From assembly GCA_028700115.1 (NCBI GenBank), contig JAQVTI010000024.1, forward strand, positions 1 to 6,497: DNA of 6,497 bases, read 5' to 3'. A program made the translations under genes and the position numbers. This DNA comes from Candidatus Iainarchaeum sp. Its GTDB lineage: Archaea > Iainarchaeota > Iainarchaeia > Iainarchaeales > CSSED10-239. Under the pieces are notes generated by a model. The model ran no database searches. It saw only the letters and a list, made by a program, of their open reading frames with translations, and was not told the DNA's origin. Below, piece by piece: positions 3 to 6,497 of this stretch. Within the stretch, counting starts at the first letter, position 1, and every line of letters starts with the position of its first letter.

Positions 3-2726
3 TATATTAGAAATGATTCAACTTTAACAACAATTTCTCAAGATCTTTTTAAAGATTATAGTAAGATAAGATTAGGTTTAAGGGAATATGCAATTACAGA
101 AAAAAATTTCAAAACAGATAAAAAAATAGATTTGTTTTTAAAACAAAAATATTTTTCTATTTCGGAAATAGAGCAAGGGTTAAAATTAATTGGTTTTAAT
201 AAATCAATTTCTGATTATTTTAAATCATTTAAATTAGATGATAAAGATCTTTTTTCAGAAATTACCGATTCATATGATAAATTTAAAAATATAAAGTATG
301 ATCCAAATGGGGATAGATTTGATATTGGTGAAAAGACAGAAAAGGGGGATCTTATAAAGCAATTTTTAGATTCTATAATGGATTTATTACATTTTATTAA
401 ACCACTTTATGTTAGTCTAAAAAATAAACCTTTAGATGATGACAAAGAGAAAAAATCAGAAGCATATGAATTAGATTCTAGTTTTTATACTGAATTTAAT
501 GACATTTATGAAAAATTATTAGAATTAATTAAAATATATAATCAAACTAGAAATTATATAACCAAAAAACCATTTGTAACAAAAAAGTTCAAATTAAATT
601 TTAATAATTCTACTCTTTTAGATGGTTGGGATAAAAATAAAGAAAAGGATAATTTTGGAGTTCTTTTTAAAAAAGAAAATTATTATTATCTTGGGATTTT
701 AAATCCTGAAAATAAAAAGATATTGGATAATTTAGAGACATCCGAAAATGTAGACGCTTTAGAAAAAATGGTTTATAAATTATTACCTGGTCCAAATAAA
801 ATGTTGCCAAAAGTATTTTTTAGTAAGGGTAATATAAAATATTATAATCCCTCTAACGAAATAATAGATATAAGAAATCATTCATCGCATACCAAAAATG
901 GAAAACCACAAGAAGGTTATGAAAAAAAAGATTTTAATTTAGATGATTGTCATAAATTTATTGATTTTTTAAAAGAAAGTTTAAGTAAACATCCAGAATG
1001 GGGTGTTTTTAATTTTAAATTTAAAGAAACCAAAAAGTATGCTGATTCTTCAGAATTTTATTTAGATGTGGCAAATCAAGGATATATAATAGATTTTATT
1101 AAACTAAATTATGAATCTATTTTAGATTTAGTCGATTCAGGCAAATTTTATTTATTCCAAATTTATAATAAAGATTATTCCAAAAATAAAGGAATATATA
1201 ATAAGGGTAAAAAAAATCTTCATACAATATATTGGGAAGAACTATTCTCAAAAGAAAATTTAAAAAATGTTGTGTATAAATTAAATGGAGAGGCAGAACT
1301 TTTTTATAGAGAAAAATCATTACCCGCAAAAATAACTCACCCTAAAAATCAAAATATAGATAACAAAGATCCAATAAACAATAAAAAAACAAGTTGCTTT
1401 GATTATGATTTGATTAAAGATAAAAGATATACTGAAGATAAATTTCTGTTCCATTGTCCAATTACTTTAAATTTTAAACAAAAAGATTTAAAATCTATTA
1501 ACAACGAAGTAAATAAAATTATTAAATCTAATGAAGTTAATATTCTAAGCATAGATCGTGGAGAGCGAAATTTATTATATTATACTCTTTTAGATTCTAA
1601 TGGGAATATATTATCTCAGAATTCATTAAACTCTGTTTTTGATGATTTAAATAGAAAATCAGATTATAAAGCTAAATTAGATTCAATCGAAGGAAAAAGA
1701 AAAGATGCTAGGCAAAATTGGCATAAAATAGTTAATATTAAAGAATTAAAAGAAGGATATTTATCTCAAGTGATTTATAAAATTTCTAAAATGGCAGTAG
1801 AAAATAATGCTATTATTGTTTTAGAAGATTTAAATTATGGATTTAAAAAAGGTAGATTTAAAATAGAAAAACAAGTTTATCAAAAATTTGAAAAAATGCT
1901 TATTGATAAATTAAATTATTTAATGTTTAAAGAAAAAGATTCTACTGAAATTGGTGGTTCTCTTAAGGCCTATCAATTAACAAGCAAATTTGATAGTTTT
2001 AAAAAATTAGGAAAACAATCTGGTATTATATTTTATGTTCCTGCAAGTTATACATCTAAAATTTGTCCAAAAACAGGATTTATTAATTTTATATATCCTA
2101 AATTTGAAAATATAAAACAAGCGCAAGATCTTTTAAATAAATTCCAATATATTAAATACCATCCAGCGGAAGATCTGTTTGAATTTAATTTTAATTATTC
2201 TGATTTTAAAAGTAAAAATGATAAAACTAAATTAATTAAAGATAATTGGTCTATTTGGTCAAATGGGATAAAATTAAAACAATTTAGAAATTCAGAAAAA
2301 AATAATATGTGGGATACAAAAGAAGTTAATGTAACTGAAGAATTAAAAAAATTATTTAAAGATTATGAAATGGATTATACCAGTGAAAATGATATAAAAG
2401 ATCAAGTAATTAATATTAATTCTAAAGAATTTTTAGAAAAATTAATAGATATTCTCAAATTAATATTACAATTAAGAAATTCAAGAAGTAATAGCGATGA
2501 AGACTATATATTATCTTGTGTAAAAGGTAAAGATGACAAATTCTTTGATTCTAGATCTGCAAAAGATAATGAACCAAAAGATGCCGATGCTAATGGTGCT
2601 TATCATATTGGTTTAAAGGGATTAATGATAATAGATAAAATTAAAAACCAAGAATCAGATAAAAAAGTAGATCTAAGACTACAGAATAATGATTATATAA
2701 ATGAAAGAATAAAGAGGTGTAATTAA
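3..2726 (+). CDS. cas12a: Cas12a (Cpf1) type V-A CRISPR effector, C-terminal ~907 codons; 5' end off-window
   Basis: The frame is open from base 3 (YIRNDSTLTTISQDLFKDYSKIRLGL...), and this stretch already resembles the Cas12a REC2 region, so TTG at 132 is not the true start. The product is near-collinear with remembered Francisella Cas12a. Matching motifs: YNQTRNYITKKPF..KFKLNFNNSTLLDGWDKNKE (WED-II); KLLPGPNKMLPKVFFS (PI motif, nt 777-824); YLFQIYNKDYS; ITHP crRNA-processing His (nt 1338-1340); YDLIKDKRYTEDKFLFHCPITLNFK. RuvC-I is SIDRGERNLLYYT (Asp at nt 1554-1556). RuvC-II is AIIVLEDLNYGFKKGRFKIEKQVYQKFEKMLIDKLNYL (Glu at nt 1824-1826). Also present are GIIFYVPASYTSKICPKTGF and the Nuc-domain LQLRNS Arg (nt 2475-2477). 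RuvC-III is DADANGAYHIGLKG (nt 2580-2621). Stop TAA is at 2724-2726. Confidence 0.97.
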   Translation, partial: YIRNDSTLTTISQDLFKDYSKIRLGLREYAITEKNFKTDKKIDLFLKQKYFSISEIEQGLKLIGFNKSISDYFKSFKLDDKDLFSEITDSYDKFKNIKYDPNGDRFDIGEKTEKGDLIKQFLDSIMDLLHFIKPLYVSLKNKPLDDDKEKKSEAYELDSSFYTEFNDIYEKLLELIKIYNQTRNYITKKPFVTKKFKLNFNNSTLLDGWDKNKEKDNFGVLFKKENYYYLGILNPENKKILDNLETSENVDALEKMVYKLLPGPNKMLPKVFFSKGNIKYYNPSNEIIDIRNHSSHTKNGKPQEGYEKKDFNLDDCHKFIDFLKESLSKHPEWGVFNFKFKETKKYADSSEFYLDVANQGYIIDFIKLNYESILDLVDSGKFYLFQIYNKDYSKNKGIYNKGKKNLHTIYWEELFSKENLKNVVYKLNGEAELFYREKSLPAKITHPKNQNIDNKDPINNKKTSCFDYDLIKDKRYTEDKFLFHCPITLNFKQKDLKSINNEVNKIIKSNEVNILSIDRGERNLLYYTLLDSNGNILSQNSLNSVFDDLNRKSDYKAKLDSIEGKRKDARQNWHKIVNIKELKEGYLSQVIYKISKMAVENNAIIVLEDLNYGFKKGRFKIEKQVYQKFEKMLIDKLNYLMFKEKDSTEIGGSLKAYQLTSKFDSFKKLGKQSGIIFYVPASYTSKICPKTGFINFIYPKFENIKQAQDLLNKFQYIKYHPAEDLFEFNFNYSDFKSKNDKTKLIKDNWSIWSNGIKLKQFRNSEKNNMWDTKEVNVTEELKKLFKDYEMDYTSENDIKDQVININSKEFLEKLIDILKLILQLRNSRSNSDEDYILSCVKGKDDKFFDSRSAKDNEPKDADANGAYHIGLKGLMIIDKIKNQESDKKVDLRLQNNDYINERIKRCN
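2712..2717 (+). promoter_or_regulatory. Shine-Dalgarno-like AAGAGG for the second effector, embedded in the last codons of cas12a
   Basis: aAAGAGGtgtaattaATG. The GAGG core at 2714-2717 lies 8 nt before ATG 2726, and it is one of the few purine/G-rich patches in this AT-rich stretch. Together with the TAATG stop/start overlap, this suggests translational coupling. Confidence 0.55.
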
Positions 2727-5700
2727 TGTCTGAATTGAAATTTTTAGGAGATTATTCTTATAATAAAGCAATAAGATTTAAATTAGAACACAAATGTGGA
2801 GAACTTCCAAAATTTGAAAGTAATAATTCCAATCCATTAGATCTTATTGATTTAGGTTTAAAAATTGTTGATGATTTTAAAGATTTAATATACCTAAAAA
2901 CAGAAAAAAACGAACTAAAATTAGATAAAAATAAATCCCCAATATTAACTAAATTTGTTTCTATTAAAAAGCAGTGGTTAAGATATTATACTAAATTAGA
3001 ATTTTATGATGGTTCTAAAAATAAAAGTGTTGATTTTTCAATAACTAATTTTCCATATTTGTCAGACTCTTTTAAAAAATGGATTGTGGATTGGACAGAT
3101 GCAATAAATCATTTAAATAATTTATTACAAGATAAAGAAAATCTAATGATTAGACGATCAGAAATTGCCTATTATTTATTGTTAATTAGTAGTAAGAATT
3201 ATTTTAATTATATAAAAGATTTTTCTTTTTATTCTAATGATAAAAACACCACTAAAGTTGCTGAATTTCAAAAGTTAATATTAATATTTGAAGAAAAATT
3301 AAATTCTTGTGTTATTAAATATGCCCCAGCACAAAATGCTGGTCTTCTTATTGCTAGTGGAAGTATGAATTATTATACTATAAATAAAAAACCTAAAGAT
3401 TATAATTTTGAATTAAGTCAATTGAAAAAAGAATATGAAATAAAACAAGAGGAATATAATTTATTTAAAGTATATAAAAGTACCCAAAAATCTTTATTAT
3501 TTCAATATATTAATTCTGGATTAGATAAAGACGAAATTTTAAAAAAATTAGCAGATAATTATAATTTTTATAAAGAAAACAATAAAAAAATTAAAACATT
3601 TTATAGTGGTGATAGTGGTAATGACCTTGCCTATAAATATTCTAGATTATTTGCAGATGATAGAGCATTAACAAGTATAATTAATTTAACAGATAAGATA
3701 AATGAACTTAATTTAAAACTACAAACAACCAACAATAATAAAGATCAAATAAAATTAGAAATTAGTGCATTAAAACAGAAACGAGGTTTCTATTTTATAA
3801 AAAGACACCCTCGAAAATCTGGTGATCCTGATTTTTATATCAGTAATGAAAAAAATTGGCATGATAGATACACCTTTTGTTTTTCAAATTATACTAATTT
3901 TTGTAAGATTTTTAAAGTAATTGCACAGAAAACAGGTAAATTAAAAGCAAAAATTAGAGCTATTGAAAAAGAAAAAATTGAGTCTCAAACTTTAAAATAT
4001 TGGTCATTTGTAGTAGATAGATCTGATGAAAAAGAATTGTGGATGGTTCCAAAAGAAAATAGAACAAAATTTAAGGATTTATTAAAATCTGATAACTCTA
4101 CAGATGTAAATATATACCAATTAACATCATTAACAATGAGAGCATTAAATAAACTATGTTTTGCAGAAGAAAGTTCTTTTGTTAAAGATATGCCAGATTA
4201 TCTAAAAGATCTTCAAAAAAAAGTAAAAGAAGCAACAGATGATGAGCAAAAAATTAAAAATCAAAGAAAAAAGATTAATTTTAGTACAGATATAAAAACA
4301 AAAAGCGAACTTAAATTGTCTTTTTTTAAGGAACTTATTAAAAGTGAGTATGCTAAAAGCTTATTAGACTTATCCAAATTTAATTTAGAAGATCTACAAA
4401 AAGTAAAAGATCTAAAAGAATTTGAAATGCTTTTAGAAAAAAATTGTTATGTTTTAGAAAAAATTGGTTTATCAAAGGAATCTTGTGAAAAATTAATTAA
4501 AGAGTGTAATATTTTAATATTTAAAATAACATCTTATGATTTAGAAGATAGACCAAAAAACACCTATCAAACAAAAGAAAGTGATTATAAAAGAATAACC
4601 TCTGAAATATGGAATACTTTTTGGGAAAACCCAGGTATTAATTTAAGAATTAACCCAGAAGTAAAAATAAGATATAGAGAAAAAAATGAAGAACATATTA
4701 AATATTTAGAAGAAAAAGGTTTTGATTTAACAAAAATAAAAAATAGATTTATTGTTGATCAATATACCTGTTATTTCACATTTACTTTAAATCCAGGCAA
4801 ACTTTATCCTGAATTAGTATTTGCTAAAACAGAAGAGCTAATAAAGAAGATTCAAGAATTTAATGATCAGTTTAATAAAATTAATTTAGAAGGCACATAT
4901 AAATATGGAATTGATAGAGGGTCTATTGAATTATCAACATTGTGTTTAGCTAAATTTGATAAAAATGATGTTTATACATATACGGTAGATGATAAAACAA
5001 AAACAATATTAAAACCAAAATTTCCAAATGGAGAAGAAGATATTAAAGTATATGAACTTAAAAAGGAACTATATAATAAAAAAGCAATTTCGGATTTAGA
5101 GAATTTGCCAATGGAAAAAAGAAAACCAAAAAGAATTATAGCAAATATTTCTTATTTTATAGATAAGATAAATGATCCAAATTGGTTTAATAAAAAAACA
5201 GTAACTTGTATTGATTTAACTACCGCAAAAGTAATCAAAGATAAAATAATAGTGAATGGAGATCTACTAACCTTTTTAAAAATGAAAAAAGAAGCAGCAA
5301 AAAGAGTATTATTTGAATTGGTATCAGAAGGAAAAATAACCCCTGATCATAAAGAACTAAAATGGGGATCAGAAAATTTAGAGGACCCTTCTTCTCGTGA
5401 ATTAAGATATTACCCATATACTAGTGATAAAATAGTTTATCATTTTGAAAATAATTTTGGAAGAGATTTAGAGGGGTTATTAATAAAAGATGATTTAATT
5501 TATTCAAAAGAAAATGTTTTAAGTAATTTTCAAGTATATCTAACTGAATTATTAGATAATAAATTAGTAGATAAAAATGAACCTAACACGCACACACCAA
5601 CAATTCCAAAAATAAATAATTTAAGAAGAGCACTTGTTTCTAATATGGTTGGTGTAATTACTTATTTACAAAAATATTACCCAGGATATGTGGTTTTAGA

Positions 5701-6163
5701 AAATTTAAAATCTAGTGAAGAATTAAATAAATTTGAAAGAAATTATATAAATACCTCAATTCCATTTGAAAAAGCACTGATTCAAAAATTCCAAACTATG
5801 GGGCTTGTTCCTCCGCACATAAAAAATTTGTGGGAAATAAGAGAAGAGAAAACCAAAAAAAATTTGCTTGTAAATAAACAAAATTTTCAATTAGGTGCTA
5901 TTTTGTTTGTTAATAAAGATAGAACAAGTAAAGATTGTCCATATTGCGAAAAGCCATATACTTGGGATAAAGAAAAGGCTGATGAACTAAAATTTAAATT
6001 ACATCAATATAAGTGTGGGCCAGATCCTTCTTGTGGTTTTGATACTAAAGAATTATTACCTAAATTTGATTTTTTAAAAGAAATTTCAGATCCTGATAAA
6101 ATTGCTGCATTTAATGTTGCAAAAAGATGGAAAGATATAGTAGAAAATGATGCCAAGAAATAA
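2726..6163 (+). CDS. cas12a2: Second Cas12-lineage RuvC + zinc-ribbon nuclease (1145 aa), Cas12a2-like companion effector
   Basis: This is an uninterrupted 1145-codon ORF in AT-rich DNA, where stop codons are frequent by chance. ATG 2726-2728 overlaps the cas12a stop (TAATG), and GAGG at 2714-2717 lies 8 nt upstream. The N-terminus FLGDYSYNKAIRFKLEH resembles the Cas12a WED-I signature (YSLSKTLRFEL). ILIFKITSYDL...EIWNTFW...INLRINPEVKIRYREK...RFIVDQYTCYFTFTLN parallels Cas12a LYLFQIYNKDFS...LYWKALF...YKLNGEAELFYR...RFTEDKFFFHVPITIN. RuvC-I is YGIDRGSIELSTL (D730, nt 4913-4915). RuvC-II is PGYVVLENL (E992, nt 5699-5701). The TSKDCPYC...CGPDPSC zinc ribbon comprises C1071/C1074/C1097/C1103. RuvC-III is DPDKIAAFNVAKR (D1124, nt 6095-6097). 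The Cas12a2 assignment rests on domain architecture and locus context, not on a database search. Confidence 0.8.
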   Translation: MSELKFLGDYSYNKAIRFKLEHKCGELPKFESNNSNPLDLIDLGLKIVDDFKDLIYLKTEKNELKLDKNKSPILTKFVSIKKQWLRYYTKLEFYDGSKNKSVDFSITNFPYLSDSFKKWIVDWTDAINHLNNLLQDKENLMIRRSEIAYYLLLISSKNYFNYIKDFSFYSNDKNTTKVAEFQKLILIFEEKLNSCVIKYAPAQNAGLLIASGSMNYYTINKKPKDYNFELSQLKKEYEIKQEEYNLFKVYKSTQKSLLFQYINSGLDKDEILKKLADNYNFYKENNKKIKTFYSGDSGNDLAYKYSRLFADDRALTSIINLTDKINELNLKLQTTNNNKDQIKLEISALKQKRGFYFIKRHPRKSGDPDFYISNEKNWHDRYTFCFSNYTNFCKIFKVIAQKTGKLKAKIRAIEKEKIESQTLKYWSFVVDRSDEKELWMVPKENRTKFKDLLKSDNSTDVNIYQLTSLTMRALNKLCFAEESSFVKDMPDYLKDLQKKVKEATDDEQKIKNQRKKINFSTDIKTKSELKLSFFKELIKSEYAKSLLDLSKFNLEDLQKVKDLKEFEMLLEKNCYVLEKIGLSKESCEKLIKECNILIFKITSYDLEDRPKNTYQTKESDYKRITSEIWNTFWENPGINLRINPEVKIRYREKNEEHIKYLEEKGFDLTKIKNRFIVDQYTCYFTFTLNPGKLYPELVFAKTEELIKKIQEFNDQFNKINLEGTYKYGIDRGSIELSTLCLAKFDKNDVYTYTVDDKTKTILKPKFPNGEEDIKVYELKKELYNKKAISDLENLPMEKRKPKRIIANISYFIDKINDPNWFNKKTVTCIDLTTAKVIKDKIIVNGDLLTFLKMKKEAAKRVLFELVSEGKITPDHKELKWGSENLEDPSSRELRYYPYTSDKIVYHFENNFGRDLEGLLIKDDLIYSKENVLSNFQVYLTELLDNKLVDKNEPNTHTPTIPKINNLRRALVSNMVGVITYLQKYYPGYVVLENLKSSEELNKFERNYINTSIPFEKALIQKFQTMGLVPPHIKNLWEIREEKTKKNLLVNKQNFQLGAILFVNKDRTSKDCPYCEKPYTWDKEKADELKFKLHQYKCGPDPSCGFDTKELLPKFDFLKEISDPDKIAAFNVAKRWKDIVENDAKK
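5936..6034 (+). other. Four-Cys zinc-ribbon module (CPYC...x22...CGPDPSC) between RuvC-II and RuvC-III of the second effector
   Basis: TGT/TGC codons sit at 5936-5938 (C1071), 5945-5947 (C1074), 6014-6016 (C1097) and 6032-6034 (C1103), giving a CxxC-x22-Cx5C pattern. It directly follows TSK, which aligns with the Cas12a TSKICP segment. The neighbouring Cas12a has no such cysteine pairs at that position. Confidence 0.7.
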
Positions 6164-6205
6164 TAAATTACAAGGTATTTTAAAAAACAACAAAAAAATC
6201 TAAAA

Positions 6206-6497
6206 ATGGAAGAAAACATTATTATTTCAAATCTTAATGATTTTATTTTTTGCCCAAGAAGTATATATTTTCATAATTTGTACTACTCTTTTGATGAAAA
6301 GACTTATCATTCAACAGATCAATTAAAAGGACAATTAGCACATAAAAAAATAGATTCCAAAAAGTATAACACAAAAAAAAACACATTAGAAGGAATAGAT
6401 ATATATAGTGAGGAGCTGGGCTTAGTTGGTAAAATAGATCTTTTAGAATTAGATACAAAAACCTTAATAGAAAGAAAAAATAAGATAAAAACTATTT
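6206..6497 (+). CDS. cas4: Cas4 (RecB/PD-(D/E)xK-type adaptation nuclease), N-terminal 97 codons; 3' end off-window
   Basis: This ORF was translated by hand because it has no stop in the window and is absent from the ORF track. The product is MEENIIISNLNDFIFCPRSIYFHNLYYSFDEKTYHSTDQLKGQLAHKKIDSKKYNTKKNTLEGIDIYSEELGLVGKIDLLELDTKTLIERKNKIKTI. It contains the N-terminal Cas4 Cys motif (F.FCPR), the G..H..D segment, and LGL.GKID(L/V).E followed by the E.K motif (IERK). These are typical of the Cas4 nuclease core. The three C-terminal Fe-S cysteines would lie beyond the window. The in-frame stop at 6164-6166 makes ATG 6206 the first possible start. Position after the effector gene(s) matches canonical V-A order (cas12a-cas4-cas1-cas2). 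Confidence 0.9.
   Translation, partial: MEENIIISNLNDFIFCPRSIYFHNLYYSFDEKTYHSTDQLKGQLAHKKIDSKKYNTKKNTLEGIDIYSEELGLVGKIDLLELDTKTLIERKNKIKTI

What the first reader, a model, noticed from the sequence alone, without database searches (positions are those of the whole stretch)
2726..6163. Dual-effector type V-A locus: a second, remodelled Cas12 nuclease between cas12a and cas4
Canonical V-A operons run cas12a-cas4-cas1-cas2. Here a 1145-aa gene sits between cas12a and cas4 and overlaps the cas12a stop by 1 nt. Its product keeps Cas12a-like N-terminal and WED-III motifs and an intact RuvC triad (GIDRG D730, VVLENL E992, DPDKIAAFN D1124). It differs from Cas12a elsewhere: the N-terminal half is unrelated, there is a large RuvC-I/II insertion, and a zinc ribbon replaces Nuc. 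So it is not a decaying duplicate but a second effector with a different mechanism. The closest described family I know is Cas12a2. That family is encoded beside or instead of Cas12a, uses Cas12a-type crRNAs, recognises RNA targets, and then degrades ssRNA, ssDNA and dsDNA indiscriminately, causing abortive infection. If the assignment holds, this locus pairs targeted DNA cleavage (Cas12a) with a suicide backup that draws on the same spacers. If it does not hold, the gene is a new Cas12 variant.
Basis: partly seen in the sequence, partly recalled or inferred. Interest (0 to 1): 0.9.

Follow-up and report, generated by a model that had tools for sequence, protein, structure and literature searches.

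The report
Cas12a3 nuclease gene beside cas12a
The 1145-residue gene between cas12a and cas4 is a real second CRISPR effector, but it belongs to the recently described Cas12a3 family (RNA-triggered nucleases that cut tRNA ends and stop growth), not to Cas12a2, and pairing with cas12a is the usual layout for that family.

Summary
An intact 1145-aa ORF (2726-6163, +) lies between a 5'-truncated cas12a and cas4 and overlaps the cas12a stop by 1 nt (TAATG). It has the RuvC triad D730/E992/D1124, a four-cysteine zinc ribbon and a 261-aa insertion between RuvC-I and RuvC-II.

The Cas12a2 assignment fails. Sequence, clade profiles, phylogeny and predicted fold all place the protein in Cas12a3 (Nature 2026; NAR 2026):
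- Clade HMM scores are Cas12a3 701 bits, Cas12a4 94, Cas12a2 71 and Cas12a -19.
- NJ bootstrap support for placement in Cas12a3 is 100/100.
- Foldseek gives TM 0.64 to the Cas12a3 structures and 0.43 to Cas12a2.
- The four Cas12a2 aromatic-clamp residues needed for dsDNA shredding fall in gaps.

The protein sits in the untested BdCas12a3 subclade and lacks the Ba1-type tRNA-loading domain.

The tandem cas12a-cas12a3 layout is not special. I found cas12a within 10 kb in 31 of 51 informative family loci, including the Ba1, Sm3 and Bd type loci. Relatives carry one array of canonical Cas12a repeats.

The most likely function is an RNA-target-activated RuvC RNase that disables tRNAs, with looser selectivity than Ba1Cas12a3, arrests growth without DNA damage, and draws on the same crRNAs as Cas12a. 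This is a new member of a known kind and of modest interest.

The parts
3..2726 (+). cas12a, C-terminal 907 codons (5' end cut by the window edge). RuvC motifs IDRGE, LEDLN and DANGAY are present.
   Evidence: TIGR04330 E 1.6e-289; Pfam REC2, PI, RuvC_1 and NUC; motifs found.
2712..2719 (+). Shine-Dalgarno-like AGAGGTG, 6 nt upstream of the cas12a3 ATG, inside the end of cas12a.
   Evidence: Read directly from the sequence.
2724..2728 (+). TAATG stop/start overlap of cas12a and cas12a3 (1 nt shared). Suggests co-transcription and translational coupling.
   Evidence: The same abutting arrangement occurs in L001-L003.
2726..6163 (+). cas12a3 (1145 aa): Cas12a3-family RNA-guided nuclease, BdCas12a3 subclade.
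   Evidence: PDB phmmer hits only Cas12a3. Profile vs PDB 1.9e-292. Clade HMM 701.5 bits. NJ bootstrap 100/100. Foldseek TM 0.64.
2753..2797 (+). N-terminal WED-I motif YSYNKAIRFKLEHKC (aa 10-24), equivalent to the Cas12a YSLSKTLRFELKP motif.
   Evidence: Y10, I16, R17 and F18 are nearly invariant or invariant. Compared with L001 Cas12a.
4127..4129 (+). S468, equivalent to Ba1Cas12a3 S469, which contacts the PFS adenine.
   Evidence: Invariant column; role taken from PMC12851939 Extended Data Fig. 5 legend.
4595..4597 (+). I624, at the position of the WED-III His of the Cas12a pre-crRNA processing motif (NLHTLYW). This position is His in 118 of 132 Cas12a3-clade sequences.
4913..4915 (+). RuvC-I catalytic D730 (GIDRG).
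   Evidence: Aligns with Ba1 D712; invariant.
5306..5620 (+). Segment aa 861-965 of the insertion domain, occupying the place of the Ba1 tRNA-loading domain. It is 105 aa, beta-rich plus one long helix, and confidently modelled. No Ba1-type tRLD is detectable.
   Evidence: Segment length comparison; tRLD HMM gives no hit at E<=10; DSSP and pLDDT 73-92.
5699..5701 (+). RuvC-II catalytic E992 (VVLENL).
   Evidence: Aligns with Ba1 E1032; invariant.
5936..6034 (+). Zinc ribbon C1071, C1074, C1097 and C1103.
   Evidence: Nearly invariant cysteines; alignment with the Cas12a2, Cas12a3 and Cas12a4 zinc ribbons.
6095..6097 (+). RuvC-III catalytic D1124 (DPDKIAAFN).
   Evidence: Aligns with Ba1 D1137.
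6206..6497 (+). cas4, N-terminal 97 codons (3' end cut by the window edge).
   Evidence: TIGR04328 E 2.5e-37. The 99%-identical contig L076 completes cas4 (184 aa) and starts cas1.

Best explanation
The gene encodes a Cas12a3-family effector of the BdCas12a3 subclade. It is co-transcribed with cas12a and translationally coupled to it.

Shown here:
- Family membership.
- An intact RuvC triad, a zinc ribbon and the PFS-contacting serine.
- Absence of the Cas12a2 dsDNA clamp.
- Absence of the Ba1-type tRNA-loading domain.
- A conserved cas12a-cas12a3-cas4-cas1-cas2 layout, with a single array of canonical Cas12a repeats in relatives.

Inferred from characterised orthologues (Ba1, Sm3, ca23 and RoiCas12a3):
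1. The protein binds the same Cas12a-type crRNAs as its neighbour.
2. It recognises complementary RNA flanked by a purine-rich PFS.
3. It opens its RuvC site and cuts RNA, not DNA.
4. Its main substrates are tRNA 3' ends. Because it lacks the gating tRLD, it probably also cuts the target and bystander RNA more freely.
5. Translation collapses and the infected cell stops growing, with no SOS response.

In this reading Cas12a clears DNA, and Cas12a3 acts as the transcript-sensing backup that uses the same spacers.
For: Sequence searches:
- phmmer against all PDB chains returns only Cas12a3 (4.8e-59 and 7.2e-58), with no Cas12a2 or Cas12a hit at E<=10.
- A family profile against PDB gives Cas12a3 1.9e-292, against SuCas12a2 5e-33.
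- BLASTP against the paper's reference sequences gives all six Cas12a3 at 1e-72 to 1e-160, best Cas12a4 6e-17, best Cas12a2 4e-16, and Cas12a 0.1.
- Clade HMMs score 701.5, 93.7, 71.3 and -19 bits for Cas12a3, Cas12a4, Cas12a2 and Cas12a.

Phylogeny and fold:
- In the NJ tree (1005 columns) the query lies inside Cas12a3 and groups with BdCas12a3, both at 100/100 bootstrap.
- The AF2 model has pLDDT 80.5 and pTM 0.71.
- Foldseek gives Cas12a3 3e-45 with TM 0.64, Cas12a2 3.5e-28 with TM 0.43, and Cas12a about 1e-14 with TM 0.29.

Residues:
- The RuvC triad and S468 are conserved.
- The aromatic-clamp residues fall in gaps.

Context:
- Relatives' loci have one array of ...AATTTCTACTGTTGTAGAT repeats after cas2.
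- cas12a lies directly upstream in L001-L006 and within 10 kb in 31 of 51 informative loci.

Published biochemistry:
- PMC12851939.
- PMC13594972.
Against: - No biochemistry exists for this protein or for any member of its subclade. The nearest tested orthologues share only about 26-30% identity.
- The Ba1 residues that hold the CCA tail (R902, Y922, N924) and the REC2 T-arm loop (251-257) have no alignable counterpart. A tRLD HMM does not detect the query.
- The two tested enzymes that lack the tRLD behave differently. RoiCas12a3 is reported by PMC13594972 to lack it. For Sm3Cas12a3 the absence is my own inference from its roughly 80-aa segment. Sm3 trims tRNA tails. Roi cuts target RNA and has high collateral RNase activity. 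Substrate selectivity here is therefore uncertain.
- The window holds no CRISPR array. The closest full locus (L001, 72% identity) has only one degenerate repeat.
- The conserved WED His is Ile624, so self-processing of pre-crRNA is not assured.
- The geometry of the three acidic residues in the model could not be measured, because no coordinates were available.
Confidence: 0.8

Rival explanations
1. One reading: it is a Cas12a2 orthologue. After RNA recognition it shreds ssRNA, ssDNA and dsDNA indiscriminately, causing SOS and abortive infection.
For: It shares the overall architecture of a zinc ribbon in place of Nuc, a large RuvC-I/II insertion and co-location with cas12a. It shows distant similarity to SuCas12a2 (profile E 5e-33; Foldseek 3.5e-28).
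Against: It lies outside the Cas12a2 clade at 100/100 bootstrap. The Cas12a2 HMM scores 71 bits against 701 for Cas12a3. SuCas12a2 Y465, Y1069, Y1080 and F1092, which are essential for dsDNA cleavage and immunity (PMC9849127), all fall in gaps, and the roughly 30-aa segment after RuvC-II that carries three of them is missing. Tested Cas12a3 enzymes do not cut DNA or induce SOS.
Confidence: 0.02
2. It is a strict tRNA CCA-tail trimmer that spares its target RNA, exactly like Ba1Cas12a3. The 105-aa segment 861-965 would act as a divergent tRNA-loading domain.
For: The segment is about 27 aa longer than in the minimal enzymes (Rb2, Sm2 and Ba4, 76-79 aa) and folds confidently. Sm3Cas12a3, whose segment is about 80 aa by my measurement, still trims tRNA tails.
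Against: There is no sequence similarity to the Ba1 tRLD. The key stacking residues are absent. The tRLD-less RoiCas12a3 cleaves its target and shows high collateral RNase activity.
Confidence: 0.25
3. It cannot mature its own guides because the conserved WED His is Ile624. It is therefore an obligate partner of the adjacent Cas12a, which supplies processed crRNAs.
For: His is present in 118 of 132 family members but is Ile in the query and in P0001 and P0002, all of which abut cas12a. The genes overlap by 1 nt.
Against: Cas12a2 and Cas12a4 carry Phe or Tyr at this column, and Cas12a2 is reported to process crRNAs through its WED-domain active site (PMC13594972 discussion). Other members that lost the His include loci without a nearby cas12a (L044, L070). 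Loss of the His does not track cas12a adjacency.
Confidence: 0.15
4. It is a decaying or catalytically dead duplicate, or a DNA-targeting second Cas12.
For: None beyond its position next to cas12a.
Against: The ORF is intact and full length, with all catalytic and zinc-binding residues. Homologues are conserved across phyla. No Nuc or target-loading domain is present (Pfam finds none). Sequence identity to the adjacent Cas12a is negligible.
Confidence: 0.03

Closest known systems
Cas12a3 (Ba1Cas12a3, PDB 9HLX/9HM4; BaCas12a3, PDB 21WE; Dmytrenko et al. Nature 2026, PMC12851939; Li et al. NAR 2026, PMC13594972)
   Same: Same clade by sequence, profile, tree and fold. Same domain order (WED, REC, PI, RuvC with insertion, zinc ribbon). 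RuvC triad and the PFS-contacting serine are conserved. No aromatic clamp. Same cas12a-cas12a3-cas4 neighbourhood: Ba1's own contig L037 has cas12a 53 bp upstream.
   Different: Only about 26% identity. Lacks the roughly 106-aa tRNA-loading domain and its R902, Y922 and N924 residues. Lacks an alignable REC2 T-arm loop. Has RuvC-II motif VVLENL rather than IIKEGF, and GIDRG rather than GIDNG.
BdCas12a3 (Bdellovibrionales MAG, listed but not characterised in PMC12851939)
   Same: Nearest published reference: 40% identity over residues 386-1134 and the same subclade at 100/100. Similar segment length (99 against 105 aa). cas12a lies directly upstream (L013).
   Different: The N-terminal REC half is much more divergent (28% over 238 aa). 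Bd keeps the WED His, whereas the query has Ile624.
RoiCas12a3 / Rb2Cas12a3 and Sm3Cas12a3 (Cas12a3 enzymes without the Ba1-type tRLD; Roi per PMC13594972, Sm3 by my segment measurement)
   Same: All lack the Ba1-type tRLD insertion. They are the best functional proxies. Roi cuts target ssRNA, has high collateral RNase activity and cuts tRNAs to a single band. Sm3 trims tRNA tails slightly further upstream than Ba1.
   Different: About 28-30% identity and different subclades. The query's segment is about 25 aa longer. That RoiCas12a3 is the same protein as Rb2Cas12a3 is my assumption from the shared Roizmanbacteria source.
Cas12a2 (SuCas12a2, PDB 8D49; PMC9849127)
   Same: Sister clade. RNA-target activation, a zinc ribbon in place of Nuc, use of Cas12a-type crRNAs and frequent co-location with cas12a.
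   Different: Separate clade. The aromatic clamps and the insertion after RuvC-II are absent. About 23% identity over the C-terminal half only. DNA shredding and SOS are not expected.
Cas12a4 (ApCas12a4; PMC12851939)
   Same: Related RNA-activated RNase clade with a RuvC domain and zinc ribbon.
   Different: Separate clade (HMM 94 bits; BLASTP 6e-17 over the C-terminal region only). It gives a different tRNA cleavage pattern.

Membership tests
Cas12a3 | Falls inside the Cas12a3 clade, apart from Cas12a, Cas12a2 and Cas12a4. | tested here: met
   In an NJ tree with 6 Cas12a3, 3 Cas12a2, 5 Cas12a4 and 2 Cas12a references, Cas12a3 plus the query is monophyletic in 100 of 100 bootstraps. Clade HMMs score 701.5, 93.7, 71.3 and -19 bits. 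The method was NJ, not ML, and only a subset of the published references was used.
Cas12a3 | Three RuvC motifs with catalytic D, E and D. | tested here: met
   D730, E992 and D1124 align with Ba1 D712, E1032 and D1137 and are invariant.
Cas12a3 | Zinc ribbon between RuvC-II and RuvC-III; no Nuc domain. | tested here: met
   C1071, C1074, C1097 and C1103 are conserved. Pfam NUC is not found, while it is found in the neighbouring Cas12a.
Cas12a3 | Overall fold matches solved Cas12a3 structures. | tested here: met
   Foldseek: 21we_A E 3.1e-45, TM 0.64/0.63; 9hlx_A E 1.4e-43. Model pLDDT 80.5.
Cas12a3 | Lacks the Cas12a2 aromatic-clamp regions. | tested here: met
   SuCas12a2 Y465, Y1069, Y1080 and F1092 fall in gaps in the query and in all Cas12a3 references.
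Cas12a3 | PFS-interacting residue (Ba1 S469). | tested here: met
   S468 is an invariant column.
Cas12a3 | tRNA-loading domain (Ba1 residues 855-960 with R902, Y922 and N924). Reported in only about 35% of Cas12a3 homologues (PMC13594972). | tested here: not met
   The key residues fall in gaps. The inter-anchor segment is 105 aa, against 149-158 aa in Ba1-type enzymes. The tRLD HMM does not hit the query at E<=10. This feature defines a subgroup, not the clade, so clade membership is unaffected but strict CCA specificity is in doubt.
Cas12a3 | Conserved WED residues for pre-crRNA processing. | tested here: inconclusive
   R641, N643, P644 and R651 are conserved, but the His of the HT..W motif is Ile624. 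Cas12a2 and Cas12a4 also lack this His.
Cas12a3 | Associated with cas4, cas1, cas2 and a CRISPR array of Cas12a-type repeats. | tested here: inconclusive
   cas4 is in the window. cas1 is on the 99%-identical contig L076. There is no repeat in the window. Arrays are present in L004, L005 and L006, but only one degenerate repeat in L001.
Cas12a3 | RNA-target-activated cleavage of tRNA 3' tails; growth arrest without SOS. | not testable with these tools
   Needs biochemistry and in vivo assays.
Cas12a2 | Falls inside the Cas12a2 clade. | tested here: not met
Cas12a2 | [quoted passage not shown] | tested here: not met
   residues taken from PMC9849127.
Cas12a2 | Collateral ssRNA, ssDNA and dsDNA degradation with SOS induction. 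| not testable with these tools
   Needs experiments.
Cas12a4 | Falls inside the Cas12a4 clade. | tested here: not met

The most novel reading that the evidence does not exclude
The BdCas12a3-like subclade, to which this protein belongs, may use its own 105-aa beta-rich module (aa 861-965) in place of the tRLD to select a collateral substrate different from both the CCA tail (Ba1) and bulk RNA (Roi). In addition, the Ile624 lineage may have given up guide processing and become an obligate partner of the overlapping cas12a, making a true two-effector system with a division of labour.
Probability: 0.12. Interest if true: 0.6.

Novelty: new member of a known kind. Interest (0 to 1): 0.33.

Why it matters
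The finding adds one more natural Cas12a3 orthologue, from a subclade with no tested member and without the tRNA-loading domain. It would be a useful comparison point for how substrate gating evolved in RNA-triggered Cas12 nucleases, and possibly an orthogonal reporter nuclease for multiplexed RNA detection.

The locus survey shows that cas12a-cas12a3 tandems sharing one adaptation module and one array are the majority arrangement (31 of 51 loci). This includes the loci of the enzymes used to define the family. The literature mentions the association only in passing. How the two effectors share guides, and when each one fires, remains experimentally open. It can be tested with any of these loci and does not depend on this window.

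Tried and rejected
- Pfam, NCBIfam: neither recognises the protein (only a sub-threshold Cas12f TNB hit, E 0.08), so curated libraries are blind to this family.
- Exact look-up of the window's protein in the contig collection found nothing. The 99% variant P0001 gave only a 5.9-kb contig.
- A search for a CRISPR array found none in the window and none in L001 or L002. L001 has only a lone degenerate repeat.
- I tested whether loss of the WED His tracks adjacency to cas12a. It does not, so the 'obligate partner' idea remains a weak lead.
- I looked for the Ba1-type tRLD with a dedicated HMM and got no hit.
- dN/dS against the 99% variant rests on only 13 differing codons, too few for a firm estimate.
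- The convergence of the three acidic residues in the AF2 model could not be measured, because coordinates are not exposed to scripts (one search lists the files in /data).
- One supplementary-file name search returned bulk data of no use.
Full report
1. What is in the window

The window (22% G+C) carries three co-oriented genes.
- Frame 3-2726 is the C-terminal 907 residues of Cas12a (TIGR04330 E 1.6e-289; Pfam REC2, PI, RuvC and Nuc domains). The IDRGE, LEDLN and DANGAY catalytic motifs are present.
- Its TAA stop (2724-2726) shares one base with the ATG (2726-2728) of a 1145-codon ORF that ends at 6163. An AGAGGTG Shine-Dalgarno-like motif lies at 2712-2719.
- After a 42-nt spacer, an ATG at 6206 opens a type V Cas4 (TIGR04328 E 2.5e-37), which runs off the window.
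- A contig 99% identical in nucleotide sequence (L076) continues 815 bp further. It shows the complete cas4 and the start of cas1.

2. Which family it belongs to

Curated domain libraries do not recognise the protein. Every other line of evidence points to Cas12a3.

Sequence against solved structures:
- A phmmer search against all PDB sequences returns only two proteins, both Cas12a3 (21WE, E 4.8e-59; 9HLX Ba1Cas12a3, E 7.2e-58). No Cas12a2 or Cas12a appears even at E<=10.
- A profile of 24 homologues (A1) raises this to 1.9e-292 and 2.1e-279. SuCas12a2 (8D49) follows at 5e-33.

Comparison with published reference sequences. Cas12a3 was described in January 2026 as one of two new clades next to Cas12a2. 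On recognising a target RNA it cuts the 3' CCA tails of tRNAs, arresting growth without DNA damage (PMC12851939). I transcribed 15 reference sequences from that paper's Supplementary Data 1, and later added SuCas12a2 and the C-terminal part of Sm3Cas12a3.
- BLASTP of the query gives all six Cas12a3 references at 1e-72 to 1e-160. The best is BdCas12a3, with 40% identity over residues 386-1134.
- The best Cas12a4 hit is 6e-17, the best Cas12a2 hit is 4e-16, and Cas12a is at 0.1.
- HMMs built from each clade's references score the query 701.5 bits for Cas12a3 (597.9 without Bd), 93.7 for Cas12a4, 71.3 for Cas12a2 and -19 for Cas12a.

Phylogeny. In neighbour-joining trees on 1005 trimmed columns, the query falls inside the Cas12a3 clade to the exclusion of the other three in 100 of 100 bootstraps. 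It groups with BdCas12a3 in 100 of 100.

Predicted fold. An AlphaFold2 model (pLDDT 80.5, pTM 0.71) matches:
- the Cas12a3 binary complexes best (E 3.1e-45, TM 0.64);
- then Cas12a2 (3.5e-28, TM 0.43);
- then Cas12a (about 1e-14, TM about 0.29).

3. Feature-by-feature test

Features that match Cas12a3:
- D730, E992 and D1124 align with the Ba1Cas12a3 catalytic residues D712, E1032 and D1137 and are invariant.
- S468 matches the PFS-contacting S469.
- The four zinc-ribbon cysteines are conserved.

Cas12a2 hallmark absent:
- The four aromatic-clamp residues of SuCas12a2 (Y465, Y1080, Y1069 and F1092) are essential for dsDNA degradation and immunity (PMC9849127). All four fall in alignment gaps.
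- The segment after RuvC-II that carries three of them is missing, as in all Cas12a3 references.

Ba1-type tRNA-loading domain not detected:
- The tRLD spans Ba1 residues 855-960. Its CCA-stacking residues R902, Y922 and N924 have no counterpart in the query.
- The segment between two conserved anchors is 105 aa in the query. It is 149-158 aa in Ba1-type enzymes and 76-79 aa in Rb2, Sm2 and Ba4.
- An HMM of the long-type domain does not detect the query at E<=10.

This absence does not expel the protein from the family. The NAR 2026 paper reports that only about 35% of Cas12a3 homologues have the domain. It also reports that the domain-less RoiCas12a3 cleaves its target RNA, has high collateral RNase activity and cuts tRNAs to a single band (PMC13594972). 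Sm3Cas12a3, whose segment I measure at about 80 aa, still trims tRNA tails, slightly further upstream.

The query's own 105-aa segment is confidently modelled as a small beta-rich module plus a helix. Its role is unknown.

4. Genomic context and the 'dual effector' claim

Homologues at 72%, 50%, 49% and 41% identity all sit directly downstream of a full-length cas12a and upstream of cas4-cas1-cas2. They include a Woesearchaeota MAG and a Phycisphaerae MAG among other metagenome contigs. Two of these loci carry an extra TPR-containing gene of about 680 aa before cas4.

Three of the loci carry a single CRISPR array after cas2, with 8, 59 and 78 repeat copies. The repeats are canonical 36-nt Cas12a repeats ending AATTTCTACTGTTGTAGAT. 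This is the best available evidence that both effectors draw on the same guides.

A scan of species-representative genomes found 69 family loci.
- Of the 51 loci with at least 4 kb of upstream sequence, 31 have cas12a within 10 kb. In most it lies directly upstream on the same strand.
- These include the source contigs of Ba1Cas12a3 (L037, 53-bp gap), Sm3Cas12a3 (L035) and BdCas12a3 (L013).

The tandem is therefore the family's usual layout and not a peculiarity of this window.

The window itself contains no repeat. The closest complete locus (L001) has only one degenerate repeat and no array.

5. Most likely mechanism

Shown by this analysis:
- An intact Cas12a3-family RuvC nuclease, transcriptionally and probably translationally coupled to cas12a.
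- It lacks both the dsDNA-clamp apparatus and the tRLD gate.

Inferred from characterised orthologues:
- It loads Cas12a-type crRNAs and is switched on by complementary RNA with a purine-rich PFS.
- It cuts RNA only.
- tRNA 3' ends are the likely physiologically decisive substrate. Without the tRLD there is probably more target and bystander RNA cleavage than in Ba1Cas12a3.
- The outcome is translational shutdown and growth arrest without SOS.

I put family membership at about 0.95 and the whole mechanistic statement at about 0.8 in its general form. Strict CCA specificity is only about 0.25.

6. A loose end

The His of the WED motif that corresponds to the Cas12a pre-crRNA processing His (NLHTLYW) is conserved in 118 of 132 clade members. 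It is Ile624 here and in the 99% and 72% relatives. This could mean dependence on Cas12a for guide maturation. Two observations weaken the idea. Cas12a2 and Cas12a4 carry Phe or Tyr at this column, and loss of the His does not track cas12a adjacency. I treat it as a lead only.

7. Verdict

It is wrong in family and in collateral chemistry.

The gene is a new member of a known kind, Cas12a3, from a subclade with no tested representative, in the family's typical arrangement. The family is also larger than published: 282 clusters at 50% identity with E<=1e-3, against the 61 Cas12a3 and Cas12a4 orthologues reported in the Nature paper. Interest is modest.

Noticed in passing
window 4595-4597 (codon 624 of the ORF): The His of the WED HT..W motif is Ile in this protein and in its 99% and 72% relatives. 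This His corresponds to the Cas12a pre-crRNA processing His and is present in 118 of 132 Cas12a3-clade sequences. Cas12a2 and Cas12a4 carry Phe or Tyr at this column.
   Followed up: partly
L001 about 10517-10552: After cas2 in the 72%-identical locus there is a single degenerate Cas12a-type repeat (...aatttctactattgtgtat, with GTGTAT in place of GTAGAT) and no array. The contig runs on into peptidase genes. The locus may have lost its array or may keep it elsewhere.
   Followed up: partly
L004 13615-15627; L006 13487-15547 (and 15558-16391): An extra gene of about 670-686 aa (faint TPR hit in L004; no Pfam hit on record in L006) sits between cas12a3 and cas4 in two relatives. It is probably the TPR-DUF3800 accessory gene reported next to about 40% of Cas12a3 operons. 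It is absent from the window, where only 42 nt separate cas12a3 from cas4.
   Followed up: no
L006 1-5497: Upstream of the intact cas12a-cas12a3 pair lies a second cas12a broken into several ORFs (REC1, REC2 and RuvC/Nuc pieces), followed by an AAA_14/DUF4143 ATPase gene. This looks like a decayed duplicate effector.
   Followed up: no
L037 337-4146; L035 6125-9859; L013 6127-9936: The source contigs of the published Ba1Cas12a3, Sm3Cas12a3 and BdCas12a3 each carry a full cas12a directly upstream (gaps of 53, 142 and 65 bp). The Nature paper's locus table does not list these.
   Followed up: yes
L010, L015, L019, L031: In a minority of family loci cas12a lies downstream of cas12a3 (L010, L019, L031) or on the opposite strand (L010, L015, L031), so the gene order is not fixed.
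   Followed up: no
L014 and L072 (both on CBDCLX010000002.1): One Bdellovibrionales genome has two Cas12a3-like matches about 70 kb apart. The second covers only residues 925-1134 and may be a fragment.
   Followed up: no
window 1117-1329, 5235-5417, 6004-6219, 6243-6458 (minus strand): Four antisense ORFs of 60-71 aa lie inside the cas genes. They are Leu-, Phe- and Ile-rich, as expected by chance opposite AT-rich coding sequence, and were not considered genes.
   Followed up: no
L076 versus window 1446-6495: A strain variant is 98.95% identical over 5050 nt. Within cas12a3 there are 7 synonymous and 6 non-synonymous codon differences, including T218A in the nearly invariant NYYT motif.
   Followed up: partly
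family-wide: Relatives occur in Woesearchaeota (archaea), Patescibacteria, Phycisphaerae, Bdellovibrionales, Spirochaetia, Gammaproteobacteria, Bacteroidota and others. The closest taxonomically labelled relatives of this 22% G+C window are an archaeal MAG and a planctomycete MAG, which implies wide horizontal transfer. The source organism of the window remains unknown.
   Followed up: no
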